Source: Candidatus Micrarchaeota archaeon
GTDB taxonomy: Archaea; Micrarchaeota; Micrarchaeia; Burarchaeales; Fermentimicrarchaeaceae
DNA: 64,000 nt
Assembly: GCA_026396385.1 (NCBI GenBank)
Contig: JAPLWV010000051.1
Span: 26,143-90,142 of the forward strand
Reading direction: 5' to 3'
The stretch's first letter is position 1, and every line of letters begins with the position of its first letter. Both the position numbers and the translations under genes were made by a program. Below the pieces are notes generated by a model. The model was not told the origin of the DNA, ran no database searches, and worked only from the letters and a program-made list of their open reading frames with translations. Positions 2,252 through 61,446 of this stretch are shown here, one piece after another.

Positions 2252-3333
2252 GCGGATATCTCCTCTTTGATTTTCTTTATAAATATCTCCTCTCGGAAGA
2301 GCTTTGCCCTTTCCTCGCATGCTTTTCTGTACTTTAGAGGATTCTTAGATACTTTCACTATCCCTTTTATTATATCTTTGATATCAGGTTTGACTAATTC
2401 ACCCGTAACCCCTGGCTCTACAGTTTCCAGGTAACCCCCTTCCGCAACTGCCACAACCGGCTTTCCGGCGGCCATTGCCTCGATTGGCGTTAAGCCGAAA
2501 TCCTCATCCATTGCCGTAACTATGAGACCTTTGCACGTGGAGTAGAGCTCTGCCAGCTTCTTGTCATCAACAGGCCCAAGCATTTTGATGTTAGATGGGA
2601 GTGCGGTGAACCTGCTCTGGTACGCCTCCGCATGGTCCCCAGCACTATATCCCCCAATTATCAGAAGCTTCTCTTTGGGCAACCTCCTGAAGGCTTCCAC
2701 CTGCAGTTCAATTCTTTTCTCAGGGTAGAGTCTGTTCACTGAAAGCCAGAAATCGCCGCTTTTCCTGAATTTGTACCTGCCAATCTGGACGGAGGGATGA
2801 ACCACCTTAGCGCCACGCCCATAGAACTTTCTCACTCTTTTCATGGTGTTTTCACTGTTTGTTATTATTTTTTTTACGTTCCTCACTGAGAGCTTATCGA
2901 AATAGGAGTGGATGCCGACCCATAGTAGGAAGAGAAGTTTAAAAAGCAGGTTGGGCTGCCTGTCCGCCATGGTATCCTTCAAATCGTAGAACGCCCTTAC
3001 CGGAGTGTGGCAGTACCACGTATTAGGTTTGTGCCTCCGTGCAGCATAGTGCGCCCAGTTACCGCTGAAAATAAAGAAATCATATTTTTCTGAAAAATTA
3101 CAAAATGCGAATAGTAGTGAGGCGTGAATCTGCTTTAGGGGCGGTATTTTCAGTGTCCCGCCCAGGCTTATAACACGCACATCCCCAAACCCCATCTTCC
3201 TTATTGAATCCTCATTGGCATCAGTGGTTATGACATCTGCACGCAAAGCTCTGGCCAGAGTGAGGACTGTCTTTTCCCCTCCCCCAATTGCATCTATGTA
3301 GTCATGAAATATCGCTATTCTCATCTTAGGCAC
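2248..3333 (-). CDS. glycosyltransferase family 4 (GT-B, retaining)
   Basis: C-terminal E-x7-E type motif region DEDFGLTPIEAMAAGKPVVAV, typical of the GT4 / group 1 family. Confidence 0.8.
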   Translation of the reverse strand: MPKMRIAIFHDYIDAIGGGEKTVLTLARALRADVITTDANEDSIRKMGFGDVRVISLGGTLKIPPLKQIHASLLFAFCNFSEKYDFFIFSGNWAHYAARRHKPNTWYCHTPVRAFYDLKDTMADRQPNLLFKLLFLLWVGIHSYFDKLSVRNVKKIITNSENTMKRVRKFYGRGAKVVHPSVQIGRYKFRKSGDFWLSVNRLYPEKRIELQVEAFRRLPKEKLLIIGGYSAGDHAEAYQSRFTALPSNIKMLGPVDDKKLAELYSTCKGLIVTAMDEDFGLTPIEAMAAGKPVVAVAEGGYLETVEPGVTGELVKPDIKDIIKGIVKVSKNPLKYRKACEERAKLFREEIFIKKIKEEISA

Positions 3334-4432
3334 GGTAAACTTCCTCCAACCTCTTAGCTATACTGCTCCATTTGTATTCATCAGGTTTAATTTTCACCTT
3401 CATCCCAAACAGCTGTTCTATTCCGTCCGCTATAGCTTTATCAGCTAGTTTTACAACTTTTCCATTGACTCCGTCTTTCACAAAGTCTTTAACCGCATTG
3501 TCGTCACTATCAACTGTCAGAACGGGAACTCCGCAGGCATTTGCTTCCAAAGCAACCATGCCAAAGCCCTCTCTGCTGGATGGCAGGGCGAGCACTTTGC
3601 TGGATTTTATGTATGAAAAAACCTTCTCATGGGCCGGGAGGAAGTTATAGAAATTTATATTGTTTTTTATTTTTAGAGAAGATACAAGATTGACAAGGTT
3701 TGATTTCTCTGGGCCTTCTCCAATTACGCAGCACCTTATTTTCGGATGTTTTGTTCTCAAAAGCGCAACAGCTCTCAGGAGCACATCAACATTTTTTTCT
3801 TTTATCAGCCTCCCTATGAAGATTACATCGAAATTCTTTTCTAGGGGCTTTGCCTTCTTCAATGATTCATAATCCACTCCGTTTGGAAACACAGGTATCT
3901 TCTTGTCCACTTTTCTCATAATCTTTCTTCTCGTAAATTCAGATACGGATATTATGTTGCTTGAGAGCGTAAGAGCCAGCCTTTCTACAATTTTCCCGCA
4001 AAACCCAAGAGGCCATCCCAGGTATTCATACCAGTAATCGCCCCATAGCTCGTACCAAGTTACGAACAGTTTAGACCCTTTTATTTTTGATACGATTTTG
4101 CATGAGAAAACCGGGAAATAGGGGAAACTCTGGCAGTTTATAACATCGAATCTACCTTCCTTTAGCAAAGCTGGAATTAAGGCTAGGGAGAAATGGATTG
4201 GTTTTAGTATAGAACGCCTTCCGCTGGCGGTGTAGAGTGGAGCAGGGCTGCATACGCCGTGCAGGTAAACTCCTTCTCTCTCTATGATATCCGGACCCTT
4301 CCAGAATTTAATTCCAAAGCAGTGAACCTCATGACAGTGGGAACTAAGCTCCTTTGAGATTTCATATATTCCGATCTCCACCCCTCCCTTTGTATATGGA
4401 TAAACTGCATCGTACACAAACGCTATCCTCAT
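3326..4432 (-). CDS. glycosyltransferase family 4
   Basis: REGFGMVALEANACGVPVLTVD motif. 8-bp overlap with the downstream GT4, consistent with an operon. Confidence 0.8.
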   Translation of the reverse strand: MRIAFVYDAVYPYTKGGVEIGIYEISKELSSHCHEVHCFGIKFWKGPDIIEREGVYLHGVCSPAPLYTASGRRSILKPIHFSLALIPALLKEGRFDVINCQSFPYFPVFSCKIVSKIKGSKLFVTWYELWGDYWYEYLGWPLGFCGKIVERLALTLSSNIISVSEFTRRKIMRKVDKKIPVFPNGVDYESLKKAKPLEKNFDVIFIGRLIKEKNVDVLLRAVALLRTKHPKIRCCVIGEGPEKSNLVNLVSSLKIKNNINFYNFLPAHEKVFSYIKSSKVLALPSSREGFGMVALEANACGVPVLTVDSDDNAVKDFVKDGVNGKVVKLADKAIADGIEQLFGMKVKIKPDEYKWSSIAKRLEEVYRA

Positions 4433-4442
4433 TCCATCCCCC

Positions 4443-5594
4443 TCATTCCTTCTTCGGAAGGACCAATATGCTTAGGAAGAATGCAGAGAAGATTGCCTGC
4501 ACGCCGAGAATTATAAGAGTTGACGAGAAGAGCGCCCTCCGCACTTCAAAAAGCGGTCCGAAGTTGCTGAGCACCCATAAATAGATTATGTCAAAACTTA
4601 GTATTACTCCCAGAACTATCATCATAATTCCCAGGAAAGAAGCTTTCTCCAGAGAGAGGTGCTTGTAGATAAATTCGATTAGCTTATCCTCTTCTTCTAA
4701 GTGGGATACAACAGCGTAGGTTTTTGTGAAGAGCCCCATTATCAGAACCTGAAAGCCGACTATGGCAAGAAGGCTTGCTATAATCATGGGGTGTAAATCA
4801 AGTGTAGTGCCAGCTATGGTCACGGGGCCTGGCACAAGGGCTAAGAGAAGGACTAAAGCGACTATGAACATGAGAGTGCCGGGTATTATGAAAAGGTAAT
4901 CCGGCGAGTACAGGAGCATAAACCTCAGATGCCTCCATCCATCGCTGAAGGAGGAGAGCTTTGACTGGGCTTTTCTTGGGTGGTATGTTATTGGAACCTC
5001 AGCTATTCTCAGCTTCTTCTTCACTGCCTTGACAATCATCTCAGAGGCGAATTCCATTCCCGTTGCATGCAAATCCAGCTTTTCAAAAGCATCCCTTCTT
5101 ATTGCTCGGAAGCCCGTGTGGACATCGCTTATGCTGGCACCAAAGAATGTGTTCAGGATGAAGGAGAGCAATGGATTGCCGATGTACCTGTGAAGCCACG
5201 GCATGGAATTAGGAAGAATTCTGCCCTTCACGCGGGAGCCTAGCACCAAATCCGCCTTGTTCTCGCGAAGGAACTTTATGAATCTAGGTATTTCGTGGAA
5301 ATCATATGTATCATCCGCATCACCCATTAGGATGTATTCTCCTTTCGCTGCCTCAAAGCCAGCCATGTATGCACTACCGTACCCTTCAGTGGGGGATTTA
5401 ACTACCTTCACTCCCATTCTCCTAGCTATTTCCGGCGTTTTATCCGTAGAAGAATCCGCGACAATTATCTCTCCTTTTATGTTTTCCCTTCTGAAAACCT
5501 CCACAATCTTACTTATGCAGTCTGCTATTGTGGTCTCCTCATTCTTGGCCGGCAATATCACGGAGAACTCAATTGTGTTTCCCAATCTTATCAC
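4443..5594 (-). CDS. GT2 glycosyltransferase of Dol-P-sugar synthase type (DPM1/AglJ/AglD-like) with C-terminal transmembrane anchor
   Basis: N-terminal GT-A motifs VILPAKNEETTI, DSSTDKT and DADDTY (DxD), followed by about 4 TM helices. Confidence 0.75.
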   Translation of the reverse strand: MIRLGNTIEFSVILPAKNEETTIADCISKIVEVFRRENIKGEIIVADSSTDKTPEIARRMGVKVVKSPTEGYGSAYMAGFEAAKGEYILMGDADDTYDFHEIPRFIKFLRENKADLVLGSRVKGRILPNSMPWLHRYIGNPLLSFILNTFFGASISDVHTGFRAIRRDAFEKLDLHATGMEFASEMIVKAVKKKLRIAEVPITYHPRKAQSKLSSFSDGWRHLRFMLLYSPDYLFIIPGTLMFIVALVLLLALVPGPVTIAGTTLDLHPMIIASLLAIVGFQVLIMGLFTKTYAVVSHLEEEDKLIEFIYKHLSLEKASFLGIMMIVLGVILSFDIIYLWVLSNFGPLFEVRRALFSSTLIILGVQAIFSAFFLSILVLPKKE

Positions 5595-21563: not shown

Positions 21564-21574
21564 TTCTTGGGCTA

Positions 21575-22111
21575 TTGTTAGTTTGTTTGTTTATTCTTGG
21601 ATGTTTTGGGGCATCCAATACTCCTCAAGGTAATACCCCCCCCCAAGATGCTAAATCAAAACAATATGAACAATTGAATAAAGATTTGCAAACGTATAAT
21701 ACGATCCTTCAGGGTGATAGCGACAAACTCGGAACTTTAAATATGGAAGGAAATGCAATAATTTCAAGGTATAATAATGCAACGACTAAACAAGATCGTT
21801 ATACTGCTTTTAGTGATTATCTGACGTGGGCGCAAAAGTATGCGAATCACGTTGAACTGATGGATAAACATCTCGCCGATTATGAAGACTATCTATCCGA
21901 TAATAAAGCACTATTAGATGAAGGAAAAGTGAATACTATACAACTGGAAAGTTCTATTGGCGATAGTAGGATTGCACTTAAACAAAGTGCTCAACAAGTA
22001 AAAACCAATATTGAAAGTATGAAGGCAACGATAGAAATGGAGCAAAAAATAGAACAGCAAAAACAAGACTTAATTATGAACATTCTAAGGATATTGATCG
22101 GCTTAAGTTAA
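21575..22111 (+). CDS. hypothetical secreted/lipobox protein
   Basis: Hydrophobic N-terminus LVCLFILGC followed by a polar coiled region. AT-rich codon usage unlike its neighbours. Start is TTG (no ATG available). Confidence 0.45.
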   Translation: MLVCLFILGCFGASNTPQGNTPPQDAKSKQYEQLNKDLQTYNTILQGDSDKLGTLNMEGNAIISRYNNATTKQDRYTAFSDYLTWAQKYANHVELMDKHLADYEDYLSDNKALLDEGKVNTIQLESSIGDSRIALKQSAQQVKTNIESMKATIEMEQKIEQQKQDLIMNILRILIGLS

Positions 22112-26240: not shown

Positions 26241-26667
26241 ATTGATACACCATCCTTTCTCCTTTACTAATCGAGACATTTGCTTGAATTATATCACCGA
26301 CGGCAATTCCAGATAGATTTACATCTGTATTACTTGGACCCAGTGGCGGCATATCTACGGTAGTAGCTGATGTTCCCCATTGAAATACGAAATTGTTGAT
26401 ATCGCTTTTTTCCAATTTTATCGTGCCATCGCGTTTATCTGAATCATAAGAGATAAGGTCCAGAATCTCAAGCCTTGCGCTTTGCGTTTGAACATTCAAA
26501 ACTCTCGCCCTAATAACTGCCGAATCAGTAAGTGGTTTTGGAGGTATGACTTCTGTTGAATCGTTAGATCCCGTAGTACTATTTGGGTTAATTGTATTTG
26601 GCGAAAGTGACTCTTTAGTAATACAGCCTGAAAAAAATAGGATTGCACAGACTAGTGAAACCAGCAA
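26224..26667 (-). CDS. hypothetical lipobox/secreted protein
   Basis: N-terminal MLVSLVCAILFFSGC hydrophobic segment ending in a lipobox-like SGC. Ser/Thr/Asn-rich linker. Confidence 0.5.
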   Translation of the reverse strand: MLVSLVCAILFFSGCITKESLSPNTINPNSTTGSNDSTEVIPPKPLTDSAVIRARVLNVQTQSARLEILDLISYDSDKRDGTIKLEKSDINNFVFQWGTSATTVDMPPLGPSNTDVNLSGIAVGDIIQANVSISKGERMVYQYEKTN

Positions 26668-27318
26668 AACATTACAGGAAAATTTTTTCGTTTTAGACCA
26701 CTTCCAACTTATCTTTCGTATATTTAGTAGCCTTGTTAGCTATGAGTATTATAATTTGTCTTTCTTCTTAAACTTATTGTTCCATGAGAGCCAAAAAATA
26801 TTTTAATTATGGAAATTATTTTGCCTCGGACGCTGTTCAGCAGAAGCAGTCAGCGAACTCATTCAATTAATTACTTTCTTAGTAATTAATTTTACGGATT
26901 CCAAATAATATTTGAGGTTCTAGTATAAAAAAGTATTGTTAAGAAGGGCTTTGCTAAGAAAGTCTCGTTTGCTCATAAACTCCCTCATCTGCTCAAAAAG
27001 TCGGGGTTTAAGGCGAGTTCTTTAGCAAAGCCGTTAAGAAGAATAGTATTTTAAATGATTAATTCATTTTTATTAATGTGGTAAAACTAGAAGATTATTT
27101 TTATGGAGTAATTGTATATCTGATGAAAAAATGGTTATGCGTCCTCGCAAATCAGCGAGACGCACCGAGAGCCGATTTTCAGTCGTATGAGAATTACGGG
27201 TGGCGAACCGTTGGCCTCAACACCAGATACTCTAAGAAACTTTGAGGGGAATTTATTTGACAGAACAGTGGAGTTCTGGAAAGATTTTTTCAAAGAACTT
27301 AATTCCGGGATTAGTAAA

Positions 27319-53685: not shown

Positions 53686-53883
53686 AGTAGGTTTTGGGAT
53701 AAGAGTGCTTGTGAGTGGAATGGCGGGATTCGTTGGAAGAGGGGATACGGATAATGGCTGACTGGGCTAAGAAGTGGGCCCGAGAAAATCCAAAGTATGG
53801 GAAAGATTGGAAGTGGAAAAGAGCCTGCCTGAATTCTGGAAGAATGTTGGCAGTATATAGCGAAGCAATAGAAGTCTTTTCAG

Positions 53884-54567
53884 TTAGCGGCTATTCACTT
53901 TTCTTGCCTTTATTATAAGATGGTTTGCAAGGGAAGGGTAGTAATCTGCTAAGCGTACAAACATGGGGGTTAGAACAGGAAATTTGCGGTAGCTGAATGC
54001 AATGCTATTACCCCGCACTTTTTCAACTTTGAATCCGTTCCTCTCCAGCATTTCAATAAGTTCACTTTTTGTAAAAAGTCGTAGGTGGTGCGGGTGCAGT
54101 TTGGGGTGCATGTAGAACAGATGCTTCCCGCATAGAAGGTTGAATCTATGCTGCAGGGAAGTCAGGTTTGGCGTGGTCAGGATAAGAGCGCCCCCTTCCT
54201 TGAGGACACGGTATGACTCGCTTATCAGATATTCGTAATTGAACAGATGCTCAATTATCTCGCCCGCATATATACAATCAAAGGATTTGCCAGGGAAAGG
54301 CAGTCTTTTACCATCTATGTTCATGGAAATGAAACGCACATTTTTTGAGCTGCATATTTTTTTATAGGCAGGGTTGAGGTCAATTCCGTATTTCTCTGCT
54401 TTAAAGTCCTTGATGAACTCACAGTTGCCGCATCCTATGTCCAGTACCACATCACCTTCTAAAAGTTTACGGGATTTGTTTATCCTCTCATCATTGGGAA
54501 GGTATTTCATATTCTCTGAAAACGACTTGAGCTGAATCTCCCTCCAATTTCTTTTAGGATGCACCAT
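53884..54567 (-). CDS. class I SAM-dependent methyltransferase
   Basis: VLDIGCGNCEF motif I. Start moved to MVHPKR (54567) because the longer ORF would overlap the divergent GT2. Confidence 0.65.
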   Translation of the reverse strand: MVHPKRNWREIQLKSFSENMKYLPNDERINKSRKLLEGDVVLDIGCGNCEFIKDFKAEKYGIDLNPAYKKICSSKNVRFISMNIDGKRLPFPGKSFDCIYAGEIIEHLFNYEYLISESYRVLKEGGALILTTPNLTSLQHRFNLLCGKHLFYMHPKLHPHHLRLFTKSELIEMLERNGFKVEKVRGNSIAFSYRKFPVLTPMFVRLADYYPSLANHLIIKARKVNSR

Positions 54568-54623
54568 GATAGGTTTATTACTGGAATGATTATAAGTATT
54601 TGCAGAGGAACTGCATAGCCATA

Positions 54624-55742
54624 ATGGGGTTGAAGATGAAAAAAGTTTCCGTGATAATAGCGGCATACAACTCGGAGAAATCAATTGGGAAAGTTTTGGA
54701 TGCGCTGGATAAGCAGGATTATGGGAATTTTGAAGTTATCGTTGTGGATGACTGTTCAAAGGACGGAACTTCCGAAGTTGTTAAGAAATTCAAGAAATTT
54801 AAGCTCATTAGAAATAAGAGGAACCGGGGGCTTTCTGGATCTGTCAACAGTGGTATAAGAGAATCAAAGGGCAGTATAATAATGACACTGCACGATGACA
54901 GCGTGCCGATGTCCGATACATGGATGTCAGACATGGTGGCGACATTTGAGATGAGCTCAGACATAGGAATAGTCAGTTCAGATTATGTCATAAACTTCAA
55001 AGGTCTGAGCCTTGCGGACAAGTGCTTCTCATTCGCATACCATCTAGGTGAGGACATGGACCTAGCAAAAAAAGAGGGAGTGGAGGACATAGAAACGATT
55101 TCGGATAAGTGCGATGCATACCGAAGGGATGTGCTGGAGCAAGTTGGATTGTTTGATGAGACGTTCAGGAACGCCGGGGAAGATATGGATATCTCTAAAA
55201 AAGTTAAGGCACTTGGCTACAGGATTGTTAGGAACAATAGATGCAAGGTTGAGCACAGATTTACGGAGTCAAAAAGGGAGAGAACGATTTGGGATCATTT
55301 CAGAAAGGCATTCCAGATAACAGAGTGTAGCATATATGTGCTTCTGAGGTATGGAATGATGTACAAAGTCGATACGCTGCTTTTCGTTCTCTCATCAATA
55401 ATCTGCTGGGCGGCCCCAGTACTCACTCTCCCGTTCTATATAATTTGTATCCTTCTGAACAGAGCATTCTCGATGTTTGGCATACTCGCCTTTGCAGCAT
55501 TCTATTACCTGAGTCCTGAGCTAATAAGACAGCCATCCCTTGCCCTTATCATCGGGCTTTCATATCTGCTTGTAAAGAATTTCCTGAAAGCGCTTCGGTA
55601 CCTTAGGAAGTATAGAAAGTTCGACCTGATACTCCCAATCTGGTCATTTTGTTTAGCTTGGGATATAGCCTCGGGACTAGGGTGGACTGTTGGAATACTC
55701 AATTTCCTAAAGGTGGAGAGTACCTCCAGGTTTATGCGGTAG
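54624..55742 (+). CDS. GT2 glycosyltransferase with C-terminal membrane domain
   Basis: VSVIIAAYNSEKSI, VVDDCSKDGT and HDD motifs. 4 TM helices in the last 120 aa. Start MGLKMKK (54624) or MKK (54636). Confidence 0.7.
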   Translation: MGLKMKKVSVIIAAYNSEKSIGKVLDALDKQDYGNFEVIVVDDCSKDGTSEVVKKFKKFKLIRNKRNRGLSGSVNSGIRESKGSIIMTLHDDSVPMSDTWMSDMVATFEMSSDIGIVSSDYVINFKGLSLADKCFSFAYHLGEDMDLAKKEGVEDIETISDKCDAYRRDVLEQVGLFDETFRNAGEDMDISKKVKALGYRIVRNNRCKVEHRFTESKRERTIWDHFRKAFQITECSIYVLLRYGMMYKVDTLLFVLSSIICWAAPVLTLPFYIICILLNRAFSMFGILAFAAFYYLSPELIRQPSLALIIGLSYLLVKNFLKALRYLRKYRKFDLILPIWSFCLAWDIASGLGWTVGILNFLKVESTSRFMR

Positions 55743-55747
55743 CCGCT

Positions 55748-56224
55748 TTACTTATGCGGCAGCTTGTTCCAGTCAAATGGCTTTCCAGTTTTTGAGTCAA
55801 TTATGCTAAGGTCATTCCAAGCCTTCCTTTCCTCATCCGGGTTCTTATAGTCATACAGCTTTGTTACGAAATATATCATCAGAGCAGGTTCTGAGCTAAT
55901 GACTTTAGAGCCGTGCCAGTAATGACCAGGAATCCGTGCTAGCTGCAGCCTCTCGCTGCTGAGGATTATCTCATCGAGCTGCTTCTTTTTTTCATCATAG
56001 GCGCATAGCTTAACCGCTCCTTTCAAGACAAGGAAGTAATCCACCTGCCCTCTCGTATGCCTGTGCCATGCCTTTATTATGCCAGGGTAAACCATAGAGA
56101 GATTGGCCTGCACTATCTTATCTTCTCCTACAAACTCCTCCCAATCCTCCCGGAATACTTCGGCAAAGAAGCCCCTCTCATCTGGCAGTTTCTTTATGTC
56201 GGTTACTTTTACTCCCTCAAGCAT
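55748..56224 (-). CDS. rmlC: dTDP-4-dehydrorhamnose 3,5-epimerase-like cupin (RmlC family)
   Basis: RGFFAEVFRED...HRHTRGQVDYFLVLKG RmlC-type blocks; 158 aa. Confidence 0.7.
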   Translation of the reverse strand: MLEGVKVTDIKKLPDERGFFAEVFREDWEEFVGEDKIVQANLSMVYPGIIKAWHRHTRGQVDYFLVLKGAVKLCAYDEKKKQLDEIILSSERLQLARIPGHYWHGSKVISSEPALMIYFVTKLYDYKNPDEERKAWNDLSIIDSKTGKPFDWNKLPHK

Positions 56225-56308
56225 ATGCTCACCCCATTCGAATATGTTTATAATATATGATGTTAATATTTATAAATGTTATTATCATATTAGTATGGAG
56301 GGGGAATA

Positions 56309-57196
56309 ATGACCAGGATACTCGTCATAGGCGCAACTGGGCTACTGGGCAGCAGGCTTATGGAGCTGGGGAAGGAAAGCTACGAGATGCACGGAACCTA
56401 CAGTAGAGACAAGCCAAAGGGAAGCAATATGCACAGGATGGATGTTACAAAGAGGGATGAAGTTTTTTCAATACTGGAGAAAGTAAAGCCGGACTGCGTG
56501 GCAGATACGGCAGCCATCACGGATGTGGATTACTGCGAGACGCATCCTGAAGAGGCATGGCTTGTGAATGTTGATGGAACTAAGAATGTTGCGGAAGCAT
56601 GCAAAAGGATTGGGGCAAAAATGGTATTCCTGTCCACGGATTATGTATTCGATGGGAAAAAACTTGATTACAGCGAAAAGGACAAGCCAAGGCCCATGAA
56701 TTATTATGCAAAAACAAAGCTGGTTTCAGAGCACGTGCTCGAGGCGCTGGGTGTTAACTATATAACTGCAAGGACTGCCGTGCTGTACGGGCTTGGAGGG
56801 CTTGGGAAGAAGAATTTCGTGACCTGGATTATTGAGAAGCTCGATAATAAGGAGAAGATTAGGATAGTGACTGACCAGCACAATAACCCCACCTATTCCG
56901 ACAACCTAGCTGAAATACTCCTTGCGCTATACAGGAAGGATGCGAAGGGGTTATTCCATGTCACTGGAAGTGACTGTCTGAGCAGGTATGAGTTCGCTTT
57001 GAGAATATCTGATGCGTTCGGATTGGATGGTAAGCTCATAAGCCCCACGACTACACCTGAACTAAACCAGATAGCAGTTAGGCCAGAAAAGGTTTCAATG
57101 GTGACAAACAAGGTTGAGAGGGTGACGGGAATTAAGCCCATGGGGGTTGATGAGGGGTTGAGGAGGCTTAAGGAGCAGCTGGAGGTAAAAGAATGA
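56309..57196 (+). CDS. rmlD: dTDP-4-dehydrorhamnose reductase
   Basis: RILVIGATGLLGSRL; YAKTK catalytic; 295 aa; RmlD-length SDR without the extended C-domain. Confidence 0.75.
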   Translation: MTRILVIGATGLLGSRLMELGKESYEMHGTYSRDKPKGSNMHRMDVTKRDEVFSILEKVKPDCVADTAAITDVDYCETHPEEAWLVNVDGTKNVAEACKRIGAKMVFLSTDYVFDGKKLDYSEKDKPRPMNYYAKTKLVSEHVLEALGVNYITARTAVLYGLGGLGKKNFVTWIIEKLDNKEKIRIVTDQHNNPTYSDNLAEILLALYRKDAKGLFHVTGSDCLSRYEFALRISDAFGLDGKLISPTTTPELNQIAVRPEKVSMVTNKVERVTGIKPMGVDEGLRRLKEQLEVKE

Positions 57197-57924
57197 AATC
57201 CGAAAAGCAAAGAAAGCATCTAGTGAAATTGGCAATCCTAAGAAGAGGGACGCACCACTCAGAAGAATCTAAGAAAAAGATGAGCGAAATCAAAAAAAGA
57301 TTATTTGCAGAAGGCAGATTAATTCAGTGGAGCAAAGGCAAACATTTTTCAGCAGAAGAATACCCGAACAAGGGTATGCGGGGCAAGCATCACTCATTAA
57401 AAAGCATACAAAAAATGAGCGAAATGCATAAAGGACTCCCATCATATTGGAAAAGAAAACATCGTTCTGAAGAAACTAAAGAAAAAATAAGTTTAAAGCT
57501 AATTGGTAATCCCGCATGGAACAAGAACATAAGAGATATTCATTTATCACCACAAACAGAATTTAAAAAAGGACGTCATCCATCAACTTCTACAGAATTT
57601 AAGAAGGGGCAGATTCCGTGGAATAGAGATAAACCCTACTTACAGATACGAGGTTCAAAACATCATAATTGGAAAGGAGGGATAACGCCATTCCGAATTG
57701 CATTACATAACTCATTGGAGTACCAAAGATGGAGAAAGACAACATTTGAAAGAGATAACTATACTTGTCAAAAATGTGGGCAACGTGGAATTAAATTAGG
57801 AGTACATCACATAAAACCATTTGCGCAATTTCCTGAATTAAGATTAGATATTAATAACGGCATTACTTTATGCAAAGACTGTCATAATCAAACAAAAAGA
57901 GGAGTAGGATTATGCGTTGTTTAG
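57193..57924 (+). CDS. free-standing HNH homing endonuclease with N-terminal NUMOD3 DNA-binding repeats
   Basis: Three NUMOD3-like repeats (GTHHSEESKKKMSE; GKHHSLKSIQKMSE; KHRSEETKEKISL). C-terminal HNH motif CQKCG...GVHHIKP...NNGITLCKDCHNQ. Lys-rich and AT-rich. Overlaps the rmlD stop (ATGA) and the rmlB start. Confidence 0.8.
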   Translation: MKSEKQRKHLVKLAILRRGTHHSEESKKKMSEIKKRLFAEGRLIQWSKGKHFSAEEYPNKGMRGKHHSLKSIQKMSEMHKGLPSYWKRKHRSEETKEKISLKLIGNPAWNKNIRDIHLSPQTEFKKGRHPSTSTEFKKGQIPWNRDKPYLQIRGSKHHNWKGGITPFRIALHNSLEYQRWRKTTFERDNYTCQKCGQRGIKLGVHHIKPFAQFPELRLDINNGITLCKDCHNQTKRGVGLCVV

Positions 57925-58874
57925 TCACAGGGGGATGCGGCTTCATATTCTCCAATTTTATAAGGTACATGCTGCAGAAATACCCAGATTACGAGATAAT
58001 CAACTTGGACAAGTTGACATACTGTGGGCGCATTGAGAACACTCTGGATTTCAAGAACAACAAGAGGTACAGGTTTGTAAAAGGTGACGTATGCAACAGA
58101 AAGCTTATTGAGAAGATTACGAAGGATGTTGATGTTATAATAAATGCAGCTGCAGAGACCCATGTGGACAGGTCGATAATAGACGCGGGAACATTTGTAG
58201 AGACAGACGTATTCGGCACATACAGCCTGCTTGAAGCTGCAAGGAAGAATGATGTTGAGAAATACGTGCAGATCTCAACTGATGAGGTTTACGGAAGCAT
58301 GGAAAAGGGAAGCTTCAGAGAGGATGACCTTCCCAACCCAAGCTCCCCTTACTCGGCAAGCAAGGCAGGGGCGGATATGCTTGTTATGGCTTACCGCAAA
58401 ACCCATGGCCTGCCAGTGATGATAACAAGGAGCTCGAACAACTACGGCCCTTATCAGTTTCCGGAGAAGCTCATACCGCTTTTCATAACAAACCTCATTG
58501 AGAACAAGAAGGTTCCGCTGTACGGGAATGGATTGAACATCAGAGACTGGCTCTTCATGACTGACAACTGCATAGCGGTGGATACGGTTCTGCAGAAAGG
58601 AAAAATCGGCGAGATTTACAATATTGCGTCATGCGAGGAGAAGACAAATTTGGAGATAACAAATATCTTGCTTAAGCTGTTTGGCAAATCCAAGGATATG
58701 ATTCAATTCGTTGATGACAGAAAGGGGCATGATTTCAGATATTCATTAAATTGCGATAAGACTCGGGAGTTGGGATGGGAGCCGAAAGTCAAGCTTGATG
58801 AAGGTTTGAGGGAGACAGTTGTGTGGTACAAGAAAAACGAGTGGTGGTGGAAGCCTCTGAAGAAGGGTGTTTAG
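57912..58874 (+). CDS. rmlB: dTDP-glucose 4,6-dehydratase
   Basis: MRCLVTGGCGFIFSNF; YSASK catalytic; 320 aa. Confidence 0.85.
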   Translation: MRCLVTGGCGFIFSNFIRYMLQKYPDYEIINLDKLTYCGRIENTLDFKNNKRYRFVKGDVCNRKLIEKITKDVDVIINAAAETHVDRSIIDAGTFVETDVFGTYSLLEAARKNDVEKYVQISTDEVYGSMEKGSFREDDLPNPSSPYSASKAGADMLVMAYRKTHGLPVMITRSSNNYGPYQFPEKLIPLFITNLIENKKVPLYGNGLNIRDWLFMTDNCIAVDTVLQKGKIGEIYNIASCEEKTNLEITNILLKLFGKSKDMIQFVDDRKGHDFRYSLNCDKTRELGWEPKVKLDEGLRETVVWYKKNEWWWKPLKKGV

Positions 58875-59571
58875 AGATGGTGACTGCATGAGCATAATTC
58901 ACTCGGCTGCCAAGTCAGTCTATTGGAAGTTCTACGTAAAAATATTCCCGCACATGGTTATCCTTGTTAGAAGAGAGCTTGAAGGGTGCAAGAGCTTTCT
59001 TGATCTTGGATGCGGGAGGGACTCTCCGGTAAAACATTTCTCAAAAGAGTTCTACTGTGTTGGCGTGGATGTTTTCAAGCCCTTTATTGAGGAGAGCAGA
59101 AAGAAAGGGATACATGATGAATACACTCTTATGAATGTGACTAATCTCAAGTTCAAGCCCCGCTCATATGATGCCGTTCTGGCTTTAGATTTGATAGAAC
59201 ATCTCCCAAAAGACGAGGGTAAGAAGCTCCTTAGAACTATGGAAAAAATTGCAAAAAAGAGGGTGATAGTCTTCACTCCAAACGAGTTCCTTAAGCAGGA
59301 TGAGCTTGAGGGAAATAAGTATCAGGTACATAAATCCGGCTGGACAGTTTCTGAGATGAGGGAGAGGGGTTACAGGGTGATGGGTGTTGGCGGGGCTAAA
59401 TTTCTTCGGGGGAGAGGCAGGCTCGCTCATTTGAGAGGGAAGGGAGTTGTGGATCATTACATGTATTACTTCTGGTGGGCTGTTTCCGATATAACACAGC
59501 TTTTTACTTACCATTTTCCAGAGTATGCATTTCAGTTGTTATGCGTAAAGGATGTTGACAAGGAGGTGTAG
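58867..59571 (+). CDS. class I SAM-dependent methyltransferase
   Basis: FLDLGCGRDSP motif I; 234 aa. Confidence 0.65.
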   Translation: MFRDGDCMSIIHSAAKSVYWKFYVKIFPHMVILVRRELEGCKSFLDLGCGRDSPVKHFSKEFYCVGVDVFKPFIEESRKKGIHDEYTLMNVTNLKFKPRSYDAVLALDLIEHLPKDEGKKLLRTMEKIAKKRVIVFTPNEFLKQDELEGNKYQVHKSGWTVSEMRERGYRVMGVGGAKFLRGRGRLAHLRGKGVVDHYMYYFWWAVSDITQLFTYHFPEYAFQLLCVKDVDKEV

Positions 59572-59573
59572 TC

Positions 59574-60335
59574 ATGAGCGGAGTGGTTGGAGTTGTGCTT
59601 GCTGGAGGCGAGGCGAGTAGACTTGGCGAGCTTACAAGAATAACAAACAAACATCTGTTGCCTGTTGGGAAGGTTCCGATGATATATCACTCTTTGAAAA
59701 GATTGGAAGAGGCAGGCATAGGAGAAGTATGCCTTGTGACCGGACAGAATCATGCTGGCGATTTCATAGATATACTTGGAGATGGGAGGGTAGTGGGAAG
59801 GGAAGGTAGAGTGTTGATTGACCTTAATCTCACCTACAAGGTTCAGAAGAGAGCTGGCGGCATAGCTGAGGCACTAAGCCTTACTAAACATTTTGTTGGT
59901 GATAACAAGGTAGTCGTTATACTCGGTGACAATATAATAGGCGGTTCAATAGATGCATACGTGGATGCATTCAGAAAACAAAAAAGCGGCGCAAGGCTGC
60001 TTTTGAAGAAAGTTAAGGATCCATGGAGATTTGGAGTTGTTGAGATAGAGAAAGGGAGTATATCCCAGATAGTTGAGAAGCCAAAGAAACCAAAATCCAA
60101 TCTCGTACAGATTGGGGTGTACATGTATGACAATGGGGTATTTGGTATAATATCAAAATTGAAGCCATCAAAAAGAAGAGAGCTGGAGATAACTGATGTA
60201 AACATGCATTATGTGAAGGAGGGCACTATAGAATTTGATATATTGACCCACTGGTGGACTGACGCAGGCACCTTAGACTCACTCGGAGAGGCGAATAGGC
60301 TGGCATTTAGGGATTGGAAGCTTTTGGGCTTCTGA
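59574..60335 (+). CDS. rmlA: glucose-1-phosphate thymidylyltransferase-like nucleotidyltransferase (short form)
   Basis: VVGVVLAGGEASRLGELTRITNKHLLPVG; 253 aa; part of the rml gene string. Confidence 0.7.
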   Translation: MSGVVGVVLAGGEASRLGELTRITNKHLLPVGKVPMIYHSLKRLEEAGIGEVCLVTGQNHAGDFIDILGDGRVVGREGRVLIDLNLTYKVQKRAGGIAEALSLTKHFVGDNKVVVILGDNIIGGSIDAYVDAFRKQKSGARLLLKKVKDPWRFGVVEIEKGSISQIVEKPKKPKSNLVQIGVYMYDNGVFGIISKLKPSKRRELEITDVNMHYVKEGTIEFDILTHWWTDAGTLDSLGEANRLAFRDWKLLGF

Positions 60336-60342
60336 TACACTT

Positions 60343-61446
60343 CTAGGAAACCAGAATGCGTTCAAGGCTTTTTGCACGCAACTTCCAATCGTTCTTCTTT
60401 ATTGAAACTTCTCTAGCATAGCTGGCTTTTTTAGCAGCTTCTGCTTTGTTTTTGTAGATTGAGATAAGAGCGCAAGACAGCTCAGCAGCGTCATCAGGAT
60501 GTACAATATAGCCTGCCTTTCCATTCTCAAGGTATTTGCGAAGCTCACCCACATCACTTGCTATTATGGGCTTGCCTAGGGACATGAATTCGAAAACCTT
60601 CACATTTGATTGGTAGTGCATTCCCTCTAACGGCGAGTAGGGAACGACTATTGCATCAGCAGATGAGAGTAGCCCGGGTAGCTTTTCGTAGGGTACTACT
60701 CCTAAAAAAATGAAATATTCCTCCAGGTTTCTCTTTTTTATTATCTGCTGCAACTCGCCCTTTTTTGGTCCGTCTCCGATTATATGGCATACTAGATGGG
60801 GTATGTCTGCTCTCACCCTGTCCACCATCTCTACAACTGATAGTATGTGCTTTATTTTGTACAAATAACTGACAAGGAATATATGGAATCCTTTCTGCTT
60901 TTTCACCTTCAACGGTTTGAATCTCTTTGTGTCAACACCGTTGGGCAGGTAGAAACATTTCCCCCAGTACTTTGCAGGTATCTTTTCGCTCTTTATGTAT
61001 TCATTTGCGTAGATTATTTTATCTGCGAACCAGATGCAGAACTTTGACAGTATTTCCATGAAGAACAGCTTATAGAAAGGTTCATCGTTGTCCTTCAGTG
61101 TTGCAGATTCCCACTCATCACAGTCCAGCAGAGTCGTGCACTTCGGGTTGATAATTTTATAGAGAATTGCTGGTAGGAATGTAAATGGGTGACACTTGTA
61201 GAAATAAACCACATCGGGTTTTTGGGAGAGTAAGTGGAGGAGCGATTTTGCAATGTAGATGGGAAGAGTTAGGAAGGATTTGTTTTCAAGTGGAAAGTAG
61301 AAACGTGAATCATCAAATGAAACTCCGTATTTATCCCTTTTCGGAAGTATGAATCGGACTTCGTTCTGCATATTTATTGCTATCTGATAGAGCCTGTTCA
61401 TCCCTGCGCTTCTTGCCGAGAATGGGGAGAGCATCATAATTTTCAT
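60343..61446 (-). CDS. glycosyltransferase family 4
   Basis: EGMHYQSNVKVFEFMSLGKPIIASDVGELRKYL C-terminal GT4 block. Confidence 0.75.
   Translation of the reverse strand: MKIMMLSPFSARSAGMNRLYQIAINMQNEVRFILPKRDKYGVSFDDSRFYFPLENKSFLTLPIYIAKSLLHLLSQKPDVVYFYKCHPFTFLPAILYKIINPKCTTLLDCDEWESATLKDNDEPFYKLFFMEILSKFCIWFADKIIYANEYIKSEKIPAKYWGKCFYLPNGVDTKRFKPLKVKKQKGFHIFLVSYLYKIKHILSVVEMVDRVRADIPHLVCHIIGDGPKKGELQQIIKKRNLEEYFIFLGVVPYEKLPGLLSSADAIVVPYSPLEGMHYQSNVKVFEFMSLGKPIIASDVGELRKYLENGKAGYIVHPDDAAELSCALISIYKNKAEAAKKASYAREVSIKKNDWKLRAKSLERILVS

What the first reader, a model, noticed from the sequence alone, without database searches (positions are those of the whole stretch)
57193..57924. NUMOD3-HNH homing-endonuclease gene inserted between rmlD and rmlB
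A Lys-rich, AT-rich ORF sits exactly between two genes of the dTDP-rhamnose operon. It overlaps the rmlD stop by ATGA and overlaps the rmlB start. It encodes three NUMOD3 repeats plus a canonical HNH nuclease motif. That domain combination is typical of free-standing homing endonucleases of phages and group I introns, such as MobE between nrdA and nrdB in T4. Intergenic invasion of a conserved sugar-nucleotide operon by a selfish endonuclease in an archaeal genome is unusual. It marks a probable lateral-transfer hotspot.
Basis: partly seen in the sequence, partly recalled or inferred. Interest (0 to 1): 0.65.

Follow-up and report, generated by a model that had tools for sequence, protein, structure and literature searches.

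The report
Mobile HNH endonuclease gene in rhamnose operon
A selfish, self-propagating nuclease gene of a well-known kind sits precisely between two sugar-synthesis genes of a tiny symbiotic archaeon, and comparison with relatives shows it moved into this exact spot horizontally; it is a clear but fairly ordinary example.

Summary
ORF 57193-57924 (+, 243 aa) has three NUMOD3 units and an intact Zn-finger HNH domain. It lies between rmlD and rmlB of a Candidatus Micrarchaeota MAG, sharing ATGA with the rmlD stop and overlapping the rmlB start by 13 nt. It is not a pathway gene. The closest relative (L005, RmlD 92% identical) has rmlD and rmlB fused by ATGA with no insert, as do L034 and L006. 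A more distant relative (L001, RmlD 77%) carries the gene at the same junction. Each of two clades therefore holds one occupied and one empty allele. Between the two occupied genomes the flanking genes are saturated at synonymous sites (dS 1.8-4.1), but the insert's 5' half is 90% identical in DNA (dS 0.39; Fisher p = 2e-9). Its GC3 (0.29 vs 0.50 +/- 0.06) is foreign. The two copies share the N-terminal DNA-binding module (87%) but carry different HNH modules, which indicates module shuffling. rmlB just downstream is unusually diverged in both occupied/empty pairs, consistent with co-conversion. The best reading is a free-standing, promoterless HNH homing endonuclease working like T4 MobE. It is a new member of a known kind. 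Cleavage activity and target site remain inferred.

The parts
55748..56224 (-). Divergent rmlC-like cupin (dTDP-4-dehydrorhamnose 3,5-epimerase-like), divergently transcribed from rmlD
   Evidence: PF00908 at 52.3 bits. TIGR01221 scores only 46 bits against a cutoff of 155.75. 95.6% identical to the L005 protein.
56309..57196 (+). rmlD (dTDP-4-dehydrorhamnose reductase), intact; upstream host gene
   Evidence: TIGR01214 at 239.7 bits, above cutoff, full length. 92.2% amino-acid identity to L005 and 76.6% to L001.
57193..57196 (+). ATGA overlap: rmlD stop (TGA) and endonuclease start (ATG). In empty alleles the same ATGA joins rmlD to rmlB
   Evidence: Sequence and junction alignments A1 and A2.
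57193..57924 (+). Free-standing NUMOD3-HNH homing endonuclease gene (243 aa)
   Evidence: Absent from L005, L034 and L006; present in L001.
57247..57297 (+). NUMOD3 unit 1 (residues 19-35), weak on its own
   Evidence: PF07460 model positions 1-17, 16.5 bits. Modelled as a helix.
57382..57492 (+). NUMOD3 units 2 and 3 (residues 64-100), full Pfam model match
   Evidence: PF07460 at 34.1 bits against a cutoff of 20.4. Split matches at 64-81 and 80-100.
57176..57535 (+). Block of 89-91% nucleotide identity to the L001 copy, against about 73% in the adjoining rmlD; the recently shared targeting module
   Evidence: Sliding-window identity. 33/352 mismatches against 237/872 in rmlD, p = 7e-13. dS 0.39.
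57556..57606 (+). Tandem 'TEFKKG' motifs in a low-confidence linker. The window has a 13-residue indel here relative to L001
   Evidence: Pairwise alignment. pLDDT 46-55. Similar 'FKKG..PWNKG' modules vary in number across the family.
57667..57897 (+). HNH nuclease domain (residues 159-235): NWKGGITP motif, Zn finger C192/C195/C227/C230, catalytic H206, N222, H231
   Evidence: PF01844. Invariant columns in A3. AF2 pLDDT 93-98 with beta-beta-alpha topology. 5h0m at rmsd 1.9 A and 33% identity.
57912..57924 (+). 13-nt overlap of the endonuclease 3' end with the re-created rmlB start. GAGGAG at 57899-57904 supplies a ribosome-binding-like motif for rmlB
   Evidence: Sequence. L001 has a TAATG overlap instead.
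57912..58874 (+). rmlB (dTDP-glucose 4,6-dehydratase), intact; downstream host gene and likely location of the cleavage or nick site
   Evidence: TIGR01181 at 459 bits. Elevated divergence between occupied and empty siblings: 16.7-28.7% (window vs L005) and 19.5% (L001 vs L034, 5' 508 nt) against 5.5-6.2% in rmlD.
58867..59571 (+). SAM-methyltransferase gene inserted between rmlB and rmlA; absent from L005 and L001. Possible hitch-hiker within the diverged tract
   Evidence: PF08241. BLASTN gap against L005. L001 gene list.
59574..60335 (+). rmlA-like glucose-1-phosphate thymidylyltransferase; part of the tract diverged from L005 (65-83% nt identity), with recovery to about 95% from ~60470
   Evidence: PF00483, and TIGR01208 at 201.8 bits, below its cutoff of 320. 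Sliding identity.

Best explanation

Shown:
- The gene took over the ATGA that joins rmlD to rmlB in empty alleles, and it re-creates an rmlB start and RBS-like motif at its 3' end. All three genes therefore stay intact and tightly coupled.
- Its distribution is patchy, with one occupied and one empty allele in each of two clades.
- It is much younger than its flanks at synonymous sites.
- Its codon usage is foreign.
- It is under purifying selection and has an intact active site.
- It is a chimera: the two known copies share the N-terminal NUMOD3 region but carry different HNH modules.

Inferred mechanism:
- The gene is transcribed from the operon promoter and translated by coupling to rmlD.
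- The NUMOD3 helices recognise a conserved sequence of an empty rmlD-rmlB allele, most likely in the first few hundred bp of rmlB.
- The Zn-finger beta-beta-alpha-metal HNH domain nicks or cuts that allele.
- Recombinational repair from an occupied allele copies the gene, plus variable lengths of flanking rmlB (co-conversion), into the empty allele.
- This is the mode of T4 MobE between nrdA and nrdB.
For: Domains and active site:
- HNH and NUMOD3 both score above Pfam cutoffs, and 19 of 21 PHROG hits are annotated HNH endonuclease.
- H206, N222, H231, C192, C227 and C230 are invariant and C195 nearly so in 35 homologs.
- The AF2 HNH domain has pLDDT 93-98. The nearest structures are the phage GVE2 HNH (5h0m, rmsd 1.9 A) and the Gme nicking HNH (4h9d).

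Free-standing status:
- The gene has its own start and stop, and there is no Rfam (intron) match in 55500-60500.

Presence and absence:
- L005 (RmlD 92.2%), L034 and L006 have rmlD abutting rmlB directly, joined by ATGA in L005 and L034.
- L001 (RmlD 76.6%) has a 71% identical gene at the same junction.
- Clade structure: window+L005 and L001+L034.

Insert younger than flanks (window vs L001):
- Flank dS is 1.8-4.1 and third-position identity 46-55%. For insert codons 1-127, dS is 0.39 and third-position identity 82%.
- Identical codons at conserved residues: 85/104 in the insert's N-terminal half against 393/765 in the flanks, p = 1.8e-9. Codon bias predicts only 0.48.
- The 90% identity block begins within about 15 nt of the insert's start.

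Other evidence:
- GC3 is 0.29 against 0.50 +/- 0.06, and Lys codon preference is reversed, in both hosts.
- dN/dS is 0.14 (N-terminal half) and 0.37 (C-terminal half).
- Module shuffling: the N-terminal regions are 87% identical, with the next-best family member at <=46% for the window's (for L001's, one 65% match over only 34 residues). Each HNH domain is 62-69% identical to other family members but only about 53% to the other copy.
- Co-conversion-like divergence of rmlB in both occupied/empty pairs (p = 1e-13 and 4e-11 against rmlD).
- Family members occupy intergenic sites in other cellular operons (yebC|ruvC in L003, thyX|tmk in L114) and occur on phage-like contigs.
- MobE precedent: promoterless, nicks the 5' region of the downstream gene, co-converts up to about 2 kb (PMC2790892).
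Against: - No cleavage activity, target site or immunity polymorphism has been demonstrated.
- Only two occupied and three empty alleles are available, all from metagenome assemblies.
- dS 0.39 means the transfer is not very recent.
- The two occupied alleles share neither their rmlB flank nor their HNH module, so the history involves several recombination events and cannot be read as one simple homing event.
- The rmlB divergence in window vs L005 increases away from the insert and continues through rmlA, so part of it may be an unrelated recombination tract.
- In L001 vs L034 the recovery in 3' rmlB is only partial (14.4% against 19.5% mismatch, p = 0.046).
- GGCGF in occupied alleles against GGAGF in empty ones is suggestive, but Cys occurs in 13 of 93 RmlBs generally.
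- How DNA from different Micrarchaeota lineages would meet in one cell is unknown.
Confidence: 0.8

Rival explanations
1. Passive cargo. The HNH gene is horizontally exchanged but does not catalyse its own spread. It reached the junction once by illegitimate recombination at the ATGAAA microhomology. It is then passed between lineages by ordinary homologous recombination within a glycan-gene recombination hotspot. The nuclease may be inactive or serve another role, for example McrA-like restriction or a leftover of a virus.
For: The surrounding cluster is clearly a recombination and indel hotspot independent of the HNH gene. Two methyltransferase genes are present or absent, and there is a diverged rmlB-rmlA tract. 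JGI labels some relatives 'McrA'. The nearest solved structure, 5h0m, is a phage HNH endonuclease, which from my recollection is terminase-associated rather than a homing enzyme. No cleavage data exist.
Against: The high-identity block begins within about 15 nt of the insert's start instead of extending into homologous flanks, which passive homologous exchange would need. The active site is intact and the gene is under purifying selection. The DNA-binding module is the part conserved between the two copies at the same site, as expected if it specifies that site. There are no modification-sensing domains and no neighbouring phage, terminase or defence genes. The same family repeatedly sits between conserved genes in other cellular genomes.
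Confidence: 0.12
2. Ancestral resident gene. The HNH gene was in the common ancestor's rml operon and was inherited vertically, then precisely deleted twice (in the L005 and L034 lineages). Its low synonymous divergence would reflect compositional or nucleotide-level constraint. It could be an accessory or regulatory component of the operon.
For: The gene sits at the same position in two lineages whose Rml proteins are only about 77-80% identical. Its tight translational coupling looks 'domesticated'.
Against: Codon identity at conserved residues is 82%, against 48% expected from its own codon usage and 51% in the flanks. Foreign GC3 persists in both hosts. The HNH halves are not each other's closest relatives. 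Three of four relatives sharing the rmlD-rmlB gene order lack the gene, with an undisturbed ATGA junction in L005 and L034. An HNH nuclease has no known role in dTDP-rhamnose synthesis (established pathway knowledge: RmlA, B, C and D suffice).
Confidence: 0.06
3. Assembly or binning artefact: a viral or foreign read set was mis-joined into the operon.
For: The source is a MAG, and the insert has atypical composition.
Against: The same insertion, at the same base-level junction, appears in an independent assembly from a different dataset (Logan SRR29366204) and in a different host clade. The reading frames on both sides are seamlessly coupled.
Confidence: 0.02

Closest known systems
Phage T4 MobE (free-standing HNH homing endonuclease between nrdA and nrdB; Wilson & Edgell 2009, PMC2790892)
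   Same: Both are free-standing HNH genes lodged in the short junction between two functionally linked, conserved genes. Both are promoterless and depend on upstream transcription. The element supplies expression signals for the downstream gene (a middle promoter in mobE; a start codon and RBS-like motif here). MobE nicks, and its recombination point lies, in the 5' region of the downstream gene, matching the diverged 5' rmlB tract here. Both proteins are bipartite (DNA-binding plus nuclease), and both have a patchy distribution among relatives.
   Different: MobE has its HNH domain at the N-terminus (PMC2790892); here it is at the C-terminus behind the NUMOD3 repeats. The host here is a cellular archaeal chromosome, not a phage. 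No T-even phage appeared among the leading tblastn matches in the phage collection. Direct MobE alignment was not done. Activity is untested here.
I-HmuI / I-HmuII-type intron-encoded HNH endonucleases (HNH_3, PF13392, with extended DNA-binding helices; own knowledge plus citation within PMC2790892)
   Same: Monomeric two-part architecture with an HNH nuclease tethered to an extended helical DNA-binding region; nicking enzymes; mobile.
   Different: Those enzymes are intron-encoded, with an N-terminal HNH of the PF13392 type. The present protein matches PF01844 (Zn-finger CxxC...CxxC type) and does not hit PF13392. No intron RNA was found.
Phage GVE2 HNH endonuclease (PDB 5h0m) and Geobacter Gme HNH nicking endonuclease (PDB 4h9d)
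   Same: Closest solved folds and sequences for the nuclease domain: 33% identity, rmsd 1.9 A over 75 columns, with the same Zn-finger beta-beta-alpha-metal core. 4h9d is described as a nicking enzyme.
   Different: Both are small single-domain proteins without NUMOD3 repeats. GVE2 HNH is phage-encoded and, from my recollection, terminase-associated. Neither the window nor L001 has phage genes nearby.
GIY-YIG homing endonucleases I-TevI / I-BmoI (NUMOD3-containing DNA-binding domains; PMC3664794, PMC2853131)
   Same: They share the NUMOD3 DNA-binding motif. A weak TIGR01453 'group I intron endonuclease' hit covers residues 64-126.
   Different: The catalytic domain differs (GIY-YIG, N-terminal), and those enzymes are intron-encoded.
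IscB / Cas9 HNH domains
   Same: Same PF01844-type HNH core (NF040563 partial hit, 37 bits; 9k2z at E = 3e-4).
   Different: The score is far below the equivalog cutoff of 175 bits. There is no RuvC, PLMP or guide-RNA component and no Rfam hit.

Membership tests
HNH endonuclease superfamily (Pfam PF01844, beta-beta-alpha-metal) | Profile match above the curated threshold | tested here: met
   42.2 bits against a cutoff of 21.4, residues 192-234.
HNH endonuclease superfamily (Pfam PF01844, beta-beta-alpha-metal) | Catalytic His (general base), Asn and metal-binding His present | tested here: met
   H206, N222 and H231 are invariant in the 35-sequence alignment A3 and align to the DH...N...CHN motif of 5h0m.
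HNH endonuclease superfamily (Pfam PF01844, beta-beta-alpha-metal) | Structural Zn finger CxxC...CxxC (this subclass) | tested here: met
   C192-x2-C195 and C227-x2-C230. Three are invariant and C195 is conserved in at least 90%.
HNH endonuclease superfamily (Pfam PF01844, beta-beta-alpha-metal) | beta-beta-alpha fold | tested here: met
   AF2 model: strands 202-206 and 223-227, helix 228-235, pLDDT 93-98. Foldseek to 5h0m at rmsd 1.9 A.
HNH endonuclease superfamily (Pfam PF01844, beta-beta-alpha-metal) | Metal-dependent DNA nicking or cleavage | not testable with these tools
   Requires biochemistry.
NUMOD3 DNA-binding motif (PF07460) | Profile match above the curated threshold; repeated short helical units | tested here: met
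   34.1 bits against a cutoff of 20.4 at residues 64-100. An extra weak unit at 19-35 scores 16.5 bits. All are modelled as helices.
Free-standing homing endonuclease gene (functional class) | Own ORF, not within an intron or intein | tested here: met
   Separate start and stop between two intact genes. No Rfam family at E <= 1 in 55500-60500.
Free-standing homing endonuclease gene (functional class) | Presence/absence polymorphism at one precise site among close relatives | tested here: met
   Window and L001 are occupied; L005, L034 and L006 are empty. Base-level junctions are aligned.
Free-standing homing endonuclease gene (functional class) | Evolutionary history incongruent with the flanking host genes (horizontal movement) | tested here: met
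   dS 0.39 against 1.8-4.1. Identical-codon test p = 1.8e-9. Foreign GC3.
Free-standing homing endonuclease gene (functional class) | Co-conversion of flanking sequence | tested here: inconclusive
   rmlB is 3-5 times more diverged than rmlD in both occupied/empty pairs. However, the tract shape in window vs L005 suggests an additional, possibly independent, recombination event.
Free-standing homing endonuclease gene (functional class) | Site-specific cleavage of the empty allele, and immunity of the occupied allele | not testable with these tools
   The only hint is GGCGF (occupied) against GGAGF (empty) 18-30 nt into rmlB, and Cys is not rare there (13/93).
T4 Mob family (MobA-E) | N-terminal HNH followed by a C-terminal DNA-binding region; phage-encoded | tested here: not met
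   Here the order is NUMOD3 at the N-terminus and HNH at the C-terminus, in a cellular archaeal genome. MobE's architecture is taken from PMC2790892. It works like MobE but is not filed as a member.
I-HmuI-like HNH_3 (PF13392) intron endonucleases | PF13392 match; intron-encoded | tested here: not met
   PF13392 is not among the Pfam hits at E <= 0.01. No intron was found.
RNA-guided IscB (NF040563) | Equivalog score of at least 175 bits with RuvC segments and omega RNA | tested here: not met
   37.2 bits, HNH segment only. No RNA family hit.
McrA-type modification-dependent restriction endonuclease (label given by JGI to some relatives) | N-terminal modified-DNA reader domain plus C-terminal HNH | tested here: not met
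   The N-terminus is NUMOD3 repeats. EcoKMcrA (6ghc) matches only the HNH core, at E = 0.16.

The most novel reading that the evidence does not exclude
An active free-standing homing endonuclease circulates among divergent lineages of DPANN (Micrarchaeota) cells. By repeatedly breaking the rmlD-rmlB junction it would drive co-conversion and exchange of the adjacent surface-glycan genes (the rmlB variant, the inserted methyltransferase, rmlA). The selfish nuclease would then act as an engine of glycan-cluster diversification and as a marker of inter-lineage DNA exchange and homologous recombination in these episymbiotic archaea. The chimeric structure (shared targeting module, swapped nuclease module) would also be a natural example of rapid re-assortment of endonuclease modules at a fixed target.
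Probability: 0.25. Interest if true: 0.6.

Novelty: new member of a known kind. Interest (0 to 1): 0.4.

Why it matters
Free-standing homing endonucleases are best known from phages. The literature searches here on homing endonucleases in archaea, DPANN and CPR found work on introns, inteins and rRNA insertions, and nothing on free-standing HNH genes in operons. This locus gives sequence-level evidence that such an element has moved between Micrarchaeota lineages whose Rml proteins are only about 72-80% identical, into one exact site. That implies DNA from different lineages meets and recombines in these poorly understood, uncultivated symbionts. The locus also provides a defined, testable target (the empty L005-type rmlD-rmlB junction) for a small NUMOD3-HNH enzyme, and a natural case of module shuffling. 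Practically, it warns annotators that an 'HNH endonuclease' inside a sugar-nucleotide operon is a parasite, not a pathway component.

Tried and rejected
- Exact-sequence lookup of the window protein found no contig on record.
- Rfam scan for a group I/II intron or other RNA around the insert found nothing at E <= 1, so the intron-encoded reading was rejected.
- tblastn for paralogs within the 64-kb window found none.
- A viral-contig scan and a cultured-phage search for a close viral donor gave a best match of 48% over part of the protein (viral contigs). In cultured phages nearly all matches were to the HNH domain alone (~35-50% of the query), and the widest (72% coverage) was only 26% identical. 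No donor was identified.
- The metagenome scan with RmlB gave only one near relative (L034). The other 79 loci were <=57% identical and mostly have a different gene order (rmlB before rmlD), so they say nothing about this junction.
- The GGCGF/GGAGF polymorphism as an immunity signature was rejected as strong evidence, because Cys occurs in 14% of RmlBs.
- Codon bias as an explanation for low dS was rejected: expected identical-codon fraction 0.48 against 0.82 observed.
- Low GC as a by-product of Lys richness was rejected: GC3 is 0.29.
- The promoter/terminator scan found nothing above shuffled expectation. It uses bacterial consensus patterns and is of little value for an archaeon.
- The two methyltransferases near the insert are only distantly related to each other (33% over 81 aa), so they are not a duplicated cassette.
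- Literature searches for prior description of an HEG in rml operons or in Micrarchaeota found only rRNA group I introns with LAGLIDADG genes.
Full report

Yes. The ORF listing gives an ATG-initiated ORF at 57193..57924 (+), 243 aa. Its ATG shares ATGA with the TGA stop of the upstream gene at 57193-57196. Its TAG stop (57922-57924) lies 13 nt inside the downstream gene, whose ATG is at 57912.

The upstream gene is rmlD (TIGR01214, 239.7 bits, cutoff 224). The downstream gene is rmlB (TIGR01181, 459.2 bits, cutoff 365). A divergent rmlC-like cupin lies on the minus strand at 55748..56224. A methyltransferase (58867..59571) and an rmlA-like gene (59574..60335) follow rmlB.

The ORF matches Pfam HNH (PF01844, residues 192-234, 42.2 bits) and NUMOD3 (PF07460, residues 64-100, 34.1 bits), both above their curated cutoffs. 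Scanning sub-fragments shows the Pfam NUMOD3 model is a double unit that matches 64-81 and 80-100. A third unit at 19-35 scores 16.5 bits alone.

The ORF is Lys-rich (14.4%) and AT-rich, with GC 0.355 against 0.44-0.475 in the flanking rml genes. A 100% identical NCBI protein is named 'HNH endonuclease [Candidatus Micrarchaeota archaeon]' and lies on a 106-kb contig. The archaeal (DPANN) assignment therefore rests on the depositor's label. It agrees with the record titles of the closest loci, L005 and L006.

**2. Is the nuclease intact?**

In an alignment of 35 family members (A3), the invariant columns include C192, H206, N222, C227, C230 and H231. C195 is conserved in at least 90%. This is the CxxC...H...N...CxxCH layout of Zn-finger HNH enzymes.

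The sequence aligns to the phage GVE2 HNH endonuclease (PDB 5h0m, E = 1e-6) with these residues in register. An AlphaFold2 model built on A3 is confident for residues ~160-235 (pLDDT 93-98). It shows the beta-beta-alpha topology (strands 202-206 and 223-227, helix 228-235). The N-terminal half is a chain of short helices joined by low-confidence linkers.

Foldseek against the PDB puts 5h0m first (rmsd 1.9 A, 33% identity). The Gme HNH nicking endonuclease 4h9d comes second. Nothing suggests decay. Between the two known copies dN/dS is 0.14 for codons 1-127 and 0.37 for the rest.

**3. Pathway gene or insert?**

The protein search found more than 2,500 relatives, but only one close one: P0002, 71% identical. 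P0002 lies on a 5.7-kb Logan contig (L001) in the order rmlC(-), rmlD, HNH, rmlB, rmlA. That is the same junction as in the window.

A GTDB scan with RmlD returned L005, a Lac Pavin Micrarchaeota MAG with RmlD 92-93% identical, and L006, a Micrarchaeota with RmlD 55% identical. In L005 rmlD (3023..3910) and rmlB (3907..4875) overlap by ATGA with nothing between them. In L006 the two genes also abut. A metagenome scan with RmlB returned L034 (RmlB 79%, RmlD 76%), again with rmlD ending where rmlB begins.

Pairwise identities define two clades:

| Clade | Occupied | Empty | RmlC | RmlD | RmlA |
|---|---|---|---|---|---|
| A | window | L005 | 95.6% | 92.2% | (diverged tract, see section 7) |
| B | L001 | L034 | 89.8% | 93.6% | 89.7% |

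Between the clades the Rml proteins are 72-80% identical. Each clade thus contains one occupied and one empty allele. The gene is dispensable and patchily distributed.

**4. Vertical or horizontal?**

Between the window and L001 the four rml genes are essentially saturated at synonymous sites. NG86 dS is 1.8-4.1 and third-position identity is 46-55%. The first 127 codons of the HNH gene have dS 0.39, third-position identity 82% and nucleotide identity 90%.

Among residues conserved between the two genomes, 85/104 codons are identical in the insert's N-terminal half, against 393/765 in the pooled flanks (Fisher p = 1.8e-9). The C-terminal half is also higher than the flanks (37/51, p = 0.004). 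Codon bias does not explain this. The fraction expected from the gene's own codon usage is 0.48, and 0.39-0.42 for the flanks.

A 90-nt sliding window shows window-L001 identity at 0.64-0.84 across rmlC and rmlD. It jumps to 0.89-0.91 exactly over 57176-57535 and falls to 0.63-0.78 in the insert's 3' half. Mismatch counts are 33/352 in the block against 237/872 in rmlD (p = 7e-13).

The insert's GC3 is 0.29 in the window and 0.30 in L001. The 39 long ORFs of the window average 0.50 +/- 0.06. Lys codon preference is reversed as well: AAA:AAG is 24:11 in the insert and 7:21 in rmlD. The insert has the lowest GC3 of all ORFs of at least 250 codons in the window.

The insert is therefore younger than, and compositionally foreign to, both hosts. 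It reached the same site in two clades by horizontal movement. Vertical descent with two precise losses does not fit these data.

**5. Anatomy of the insertion.**

In empty alleles the sequence reads ...GGAGGGGATGGG**ATGA**AACTGCTTGTGACGGGAGGG (L005). A Shine-Dalgarno-like GGAGG precedes the rmlB ATG, which overlaps the rmlD stop.

In occupied alleles the same upstream GGAGG and the ATGA now serve the endonuclease: GGAGGTAAAAGA**ATGA**AATCC. At the insert's 3' end a new rmlB start is provided. In L001 this is a TAATG overlap followed by AAACTTTGTGTGAC, so ATGAAA is directly repeated at both ends of the insert. In the window it is GAGGAGTAGGATT**ATG**CGTTGTT**TAG**, where the endonuclease frame runs 13 nt into rmlB.

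The element thus takes over the translational coupling signal of rmlB and brings a replacement. Both host genes stay full-length. There is no room for a separate promoter at the 5' end, so expression from the operon transcript is inferred. The bacterial-type promoter/terminator scan found nothing above chance and is not informative for an archaeon. No RNA family, intron or otherwise, matches the region.

**6. Mosaic structure.**

The N-terminal regions (residues 1-128) of the window and L001 proteins are 87% identical. The next best family member is <=46% over short stretches for the window's; for L001's, one 34-residue stretch reaches 65% and the rest are <=50%. The HNH domains (from NWKGGITP to the end) are only about 53% identical to each other. 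Each is 62-69% identical to many other family members, and neither appears in the other's top ten.

The two elements at the same site therefore share the presumed targeting module but carry different nuclease modules. This is what one expects if the NUMOD3 region specifies the site and modules re-assort by recombination. The linker also differs by a 13-residue indel next to tandem 'TEFKKG' motifs. Across the family the number of NUMOD3 and 'FKKG..PWNKG' modules varies widely.

**7. Flanks: co-conversion and a hotspot.**

In the clade B pair (L001 vs L034), mismatch is 6.2% in rmlD. It rises to 19.5% in the first 508 nt of rmlB (p = 1.4e-13). It then partly recovers, with windows of 0.91-0.94 identity at 58433-58700 and 14.4% mismatch for the whole 3' part.

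In the clade A pair (window vs L005), mismatch is 5.5% in rmlD, 16.7% in 5' rmlB and 28.7% in 3' rmlB. The diverged tract continues across a methyltransferase gene that L005 lacks, and across rmlA (65-83% identity). It returns to about 95% from ~60470.

In both pairs the sequence just downstream of the insertion site is the diverged side. That matches the MobE precedent, where the nick and the recombination point lie in the 5' part of the downstream gene and co-conversion reaches up to ~2 kb (PMC2790892). The window-L005 tract, however, grows more diverged with distance. It is not similar to L001 or L034 either (RmlB 79-80%, RmlA about 75%). It may therefore reflect a separate exchange with an unsampled lineage, possibly the one that delivered the methyltransferase. 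I rate co-conversion as consistent but not established.

Both occupied alleles encode GGCGF in the rmlB Rossmann motif where the empty siblings encode GGAGF. Cys occurs there in 13 of 93 RmlBs, so this is only a hint of a target-immunity polymorphism.

Independently of the endonuclease, the window differs from L005 by another ~0.9-kb segment (53699-54621) carrying a minus-strand methyltransferase.

**8. The family elsewhere.**

Relatives occur on phage-like contigs: L002 lies next to capsid-like and tail-like genes, and L115 next to an SU10-type adaptor. L117 is a contig of small unannotated ORFs whose viral or plasmid nature is only suggested.

Relatives also occur in cellular genomes between conserved genes. 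One sits between yebC and ruvC (L003). Another sits between thyX and tmk in a nucleotide-metabolism cluster on a 161-kb contig (L114).

IMG/VR and cultured-phage searches found no close viral copy. The best viral match is 48% over residues 60-234. In cultured phages nearly all matches cover only the HNH domain, and the widest (Halovirus HCTV-5, 72% of the query) is 26% identical. Operon-junction residence in small cellular genomes seems to be a recurrent lifestyle of this family. That lowers the surprise of the present case.

**9. Most likely mechanism (inference marked).**

Shown:
- an intact NUMOD3 + Zn-HNH protein under purifying selection;
- precise, coupling-preserving insertion;
- presence/absence polymorphism;
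- horizontal origin;
- module shuffling.

Inferred:
- The protein is made from the rml transcript.
- Its NUMOD3 helices bind a conserved sequence at or near the empty junction, probably in 5' rmlB.
- The HNH domain nicks or cuts there. The closest structural relatives include a nicking enzyme (4h9d), and MobE also nicks.
- Repair from an occupied allele copies in the gene and adjacent rmlB sequence.

This requires two lineages' DNA to be in one cell, and the route for that in Micrarchaeota is unknown.

**10. Comparison with known systems and novelty.**

Functionally the best analogue is T4 MobE: free-standing, promoterless, sited between two functionally linked genes, acting on the downstream gene. 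It is not a Mob-family member, because the domain order is reversed and the host is cellular. It is not I-HmuI-like (no PF13392 match, no intron). It is not IscB (37 bits against a 175-bit cutoff). It is not McrA-like (no reader domain).

The protein is already annotated 'HNH endonuclease' in NCBI. Literature searches found no description of a homing endonuclease in an rml operon. For Micrarchaeota they found only rRNA group I introns carrying LAGLIDADG genes.

I classify it as a new member of a known kind. It is a well-supported example that would be useful for studying recombination in DPANN archaea, but it is not a new type of system. Interest 0.4.

Noticed in passing
window 58867-59571 (+): A SAM-dependent methyltransferase gene (PF08241) is wedged between rmlB and rmlA with overlapping or abutting stops and starts. 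It is absent from the closest relative L005 and from L001, where rmlB and rmlA abut. It sits in the middle of the tract most diverged from L005, so it could have hitch-hiked with the endonuclease or arrived in a separate exchange.
   Followed up: partly
window 53699-54621 (ORF 53884-54684, - strand): A second gene-sized indel relative to L005: about 0.9 kb carrying a minus-strand methyltransferase (PF08241/PF13489) is missing from L005, whose flanks join seamlessly. It is only distantly related to the other methyltransferase (33% over 81 aa).
   Followed up: partly
window 58075-60470: Nucleotide identity to L005 falls from about 95% to 65-83% across 3' rmlB and rmlA, then snaps back to about 95% in the downstream glycosyltransferase. 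The tract is not closer to L001 or L034 either, implying replacement from an unsampled lineage. From memory, this resembles the recombination gradients known for rml genes at the edges of bacterial O-antigen clusters.
   Followed up: partly
L003 5001-5759 and L114 4001-4588: Family members sit between conserved genes of other cellular genomes: between yebC and ruvC (L003, with ruvB nearby) and between thyX and tmk in a dCMP-deaminase/dUTPase/SHMT/ThyX/Tmk cluster (L114). Matched empty sites were not sought.
   Followed up: no
window 21545-22108 (+) and 26227-26739 (-): Two small ORFs (188 and 171 aa stop-to-stop) with hydrophobic N-termini (secreted or lipoprotein-like) have GC3 of 0.27-0.30, as low as the endonuclease gene and far below the window mean of 0.50. 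They flank a 1358-codon ORF at 22215-26288. Their origin and function were not examined.
   Followed up: no
window 55748-56224 (-): The rmlC-like gene is short (158 aa) and scores only 46 bits against TIGR01221 (cutoff 155.75), though PF00908 is significant. It is a divergent cupin epimerase conserved in L005, L001 and L034, whereas L006 has a 183-aa version only 28% identical.
   Followed up: no
window 57930-57953 (+): A terminator-like hairpin (GGGGGATGCGGCTTCATATTCTCC followed by AATTTTATAA) lies in the first codons of rmlB. It overlaps the GGGGGATGCGG segment that distinguishes occupied from empty alleles. The scan as a whole is not above chance (4 found, 3.5 expected), and the pattern is a bacterial one.
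   Followed up: no
window 57556-57660 vs L001 2405-2470: The linker between the NUMOD3 region and the HNH domain carries tandem 'TEFKKG' motifs and a 13-residue indel between the two copies (the window has an extra IPWNRDKPYLQ-like segment). This is the point where nucleotide identity between the copies collapses, so it is a likely recombination breakpoint between modules.
   Followed up: partly
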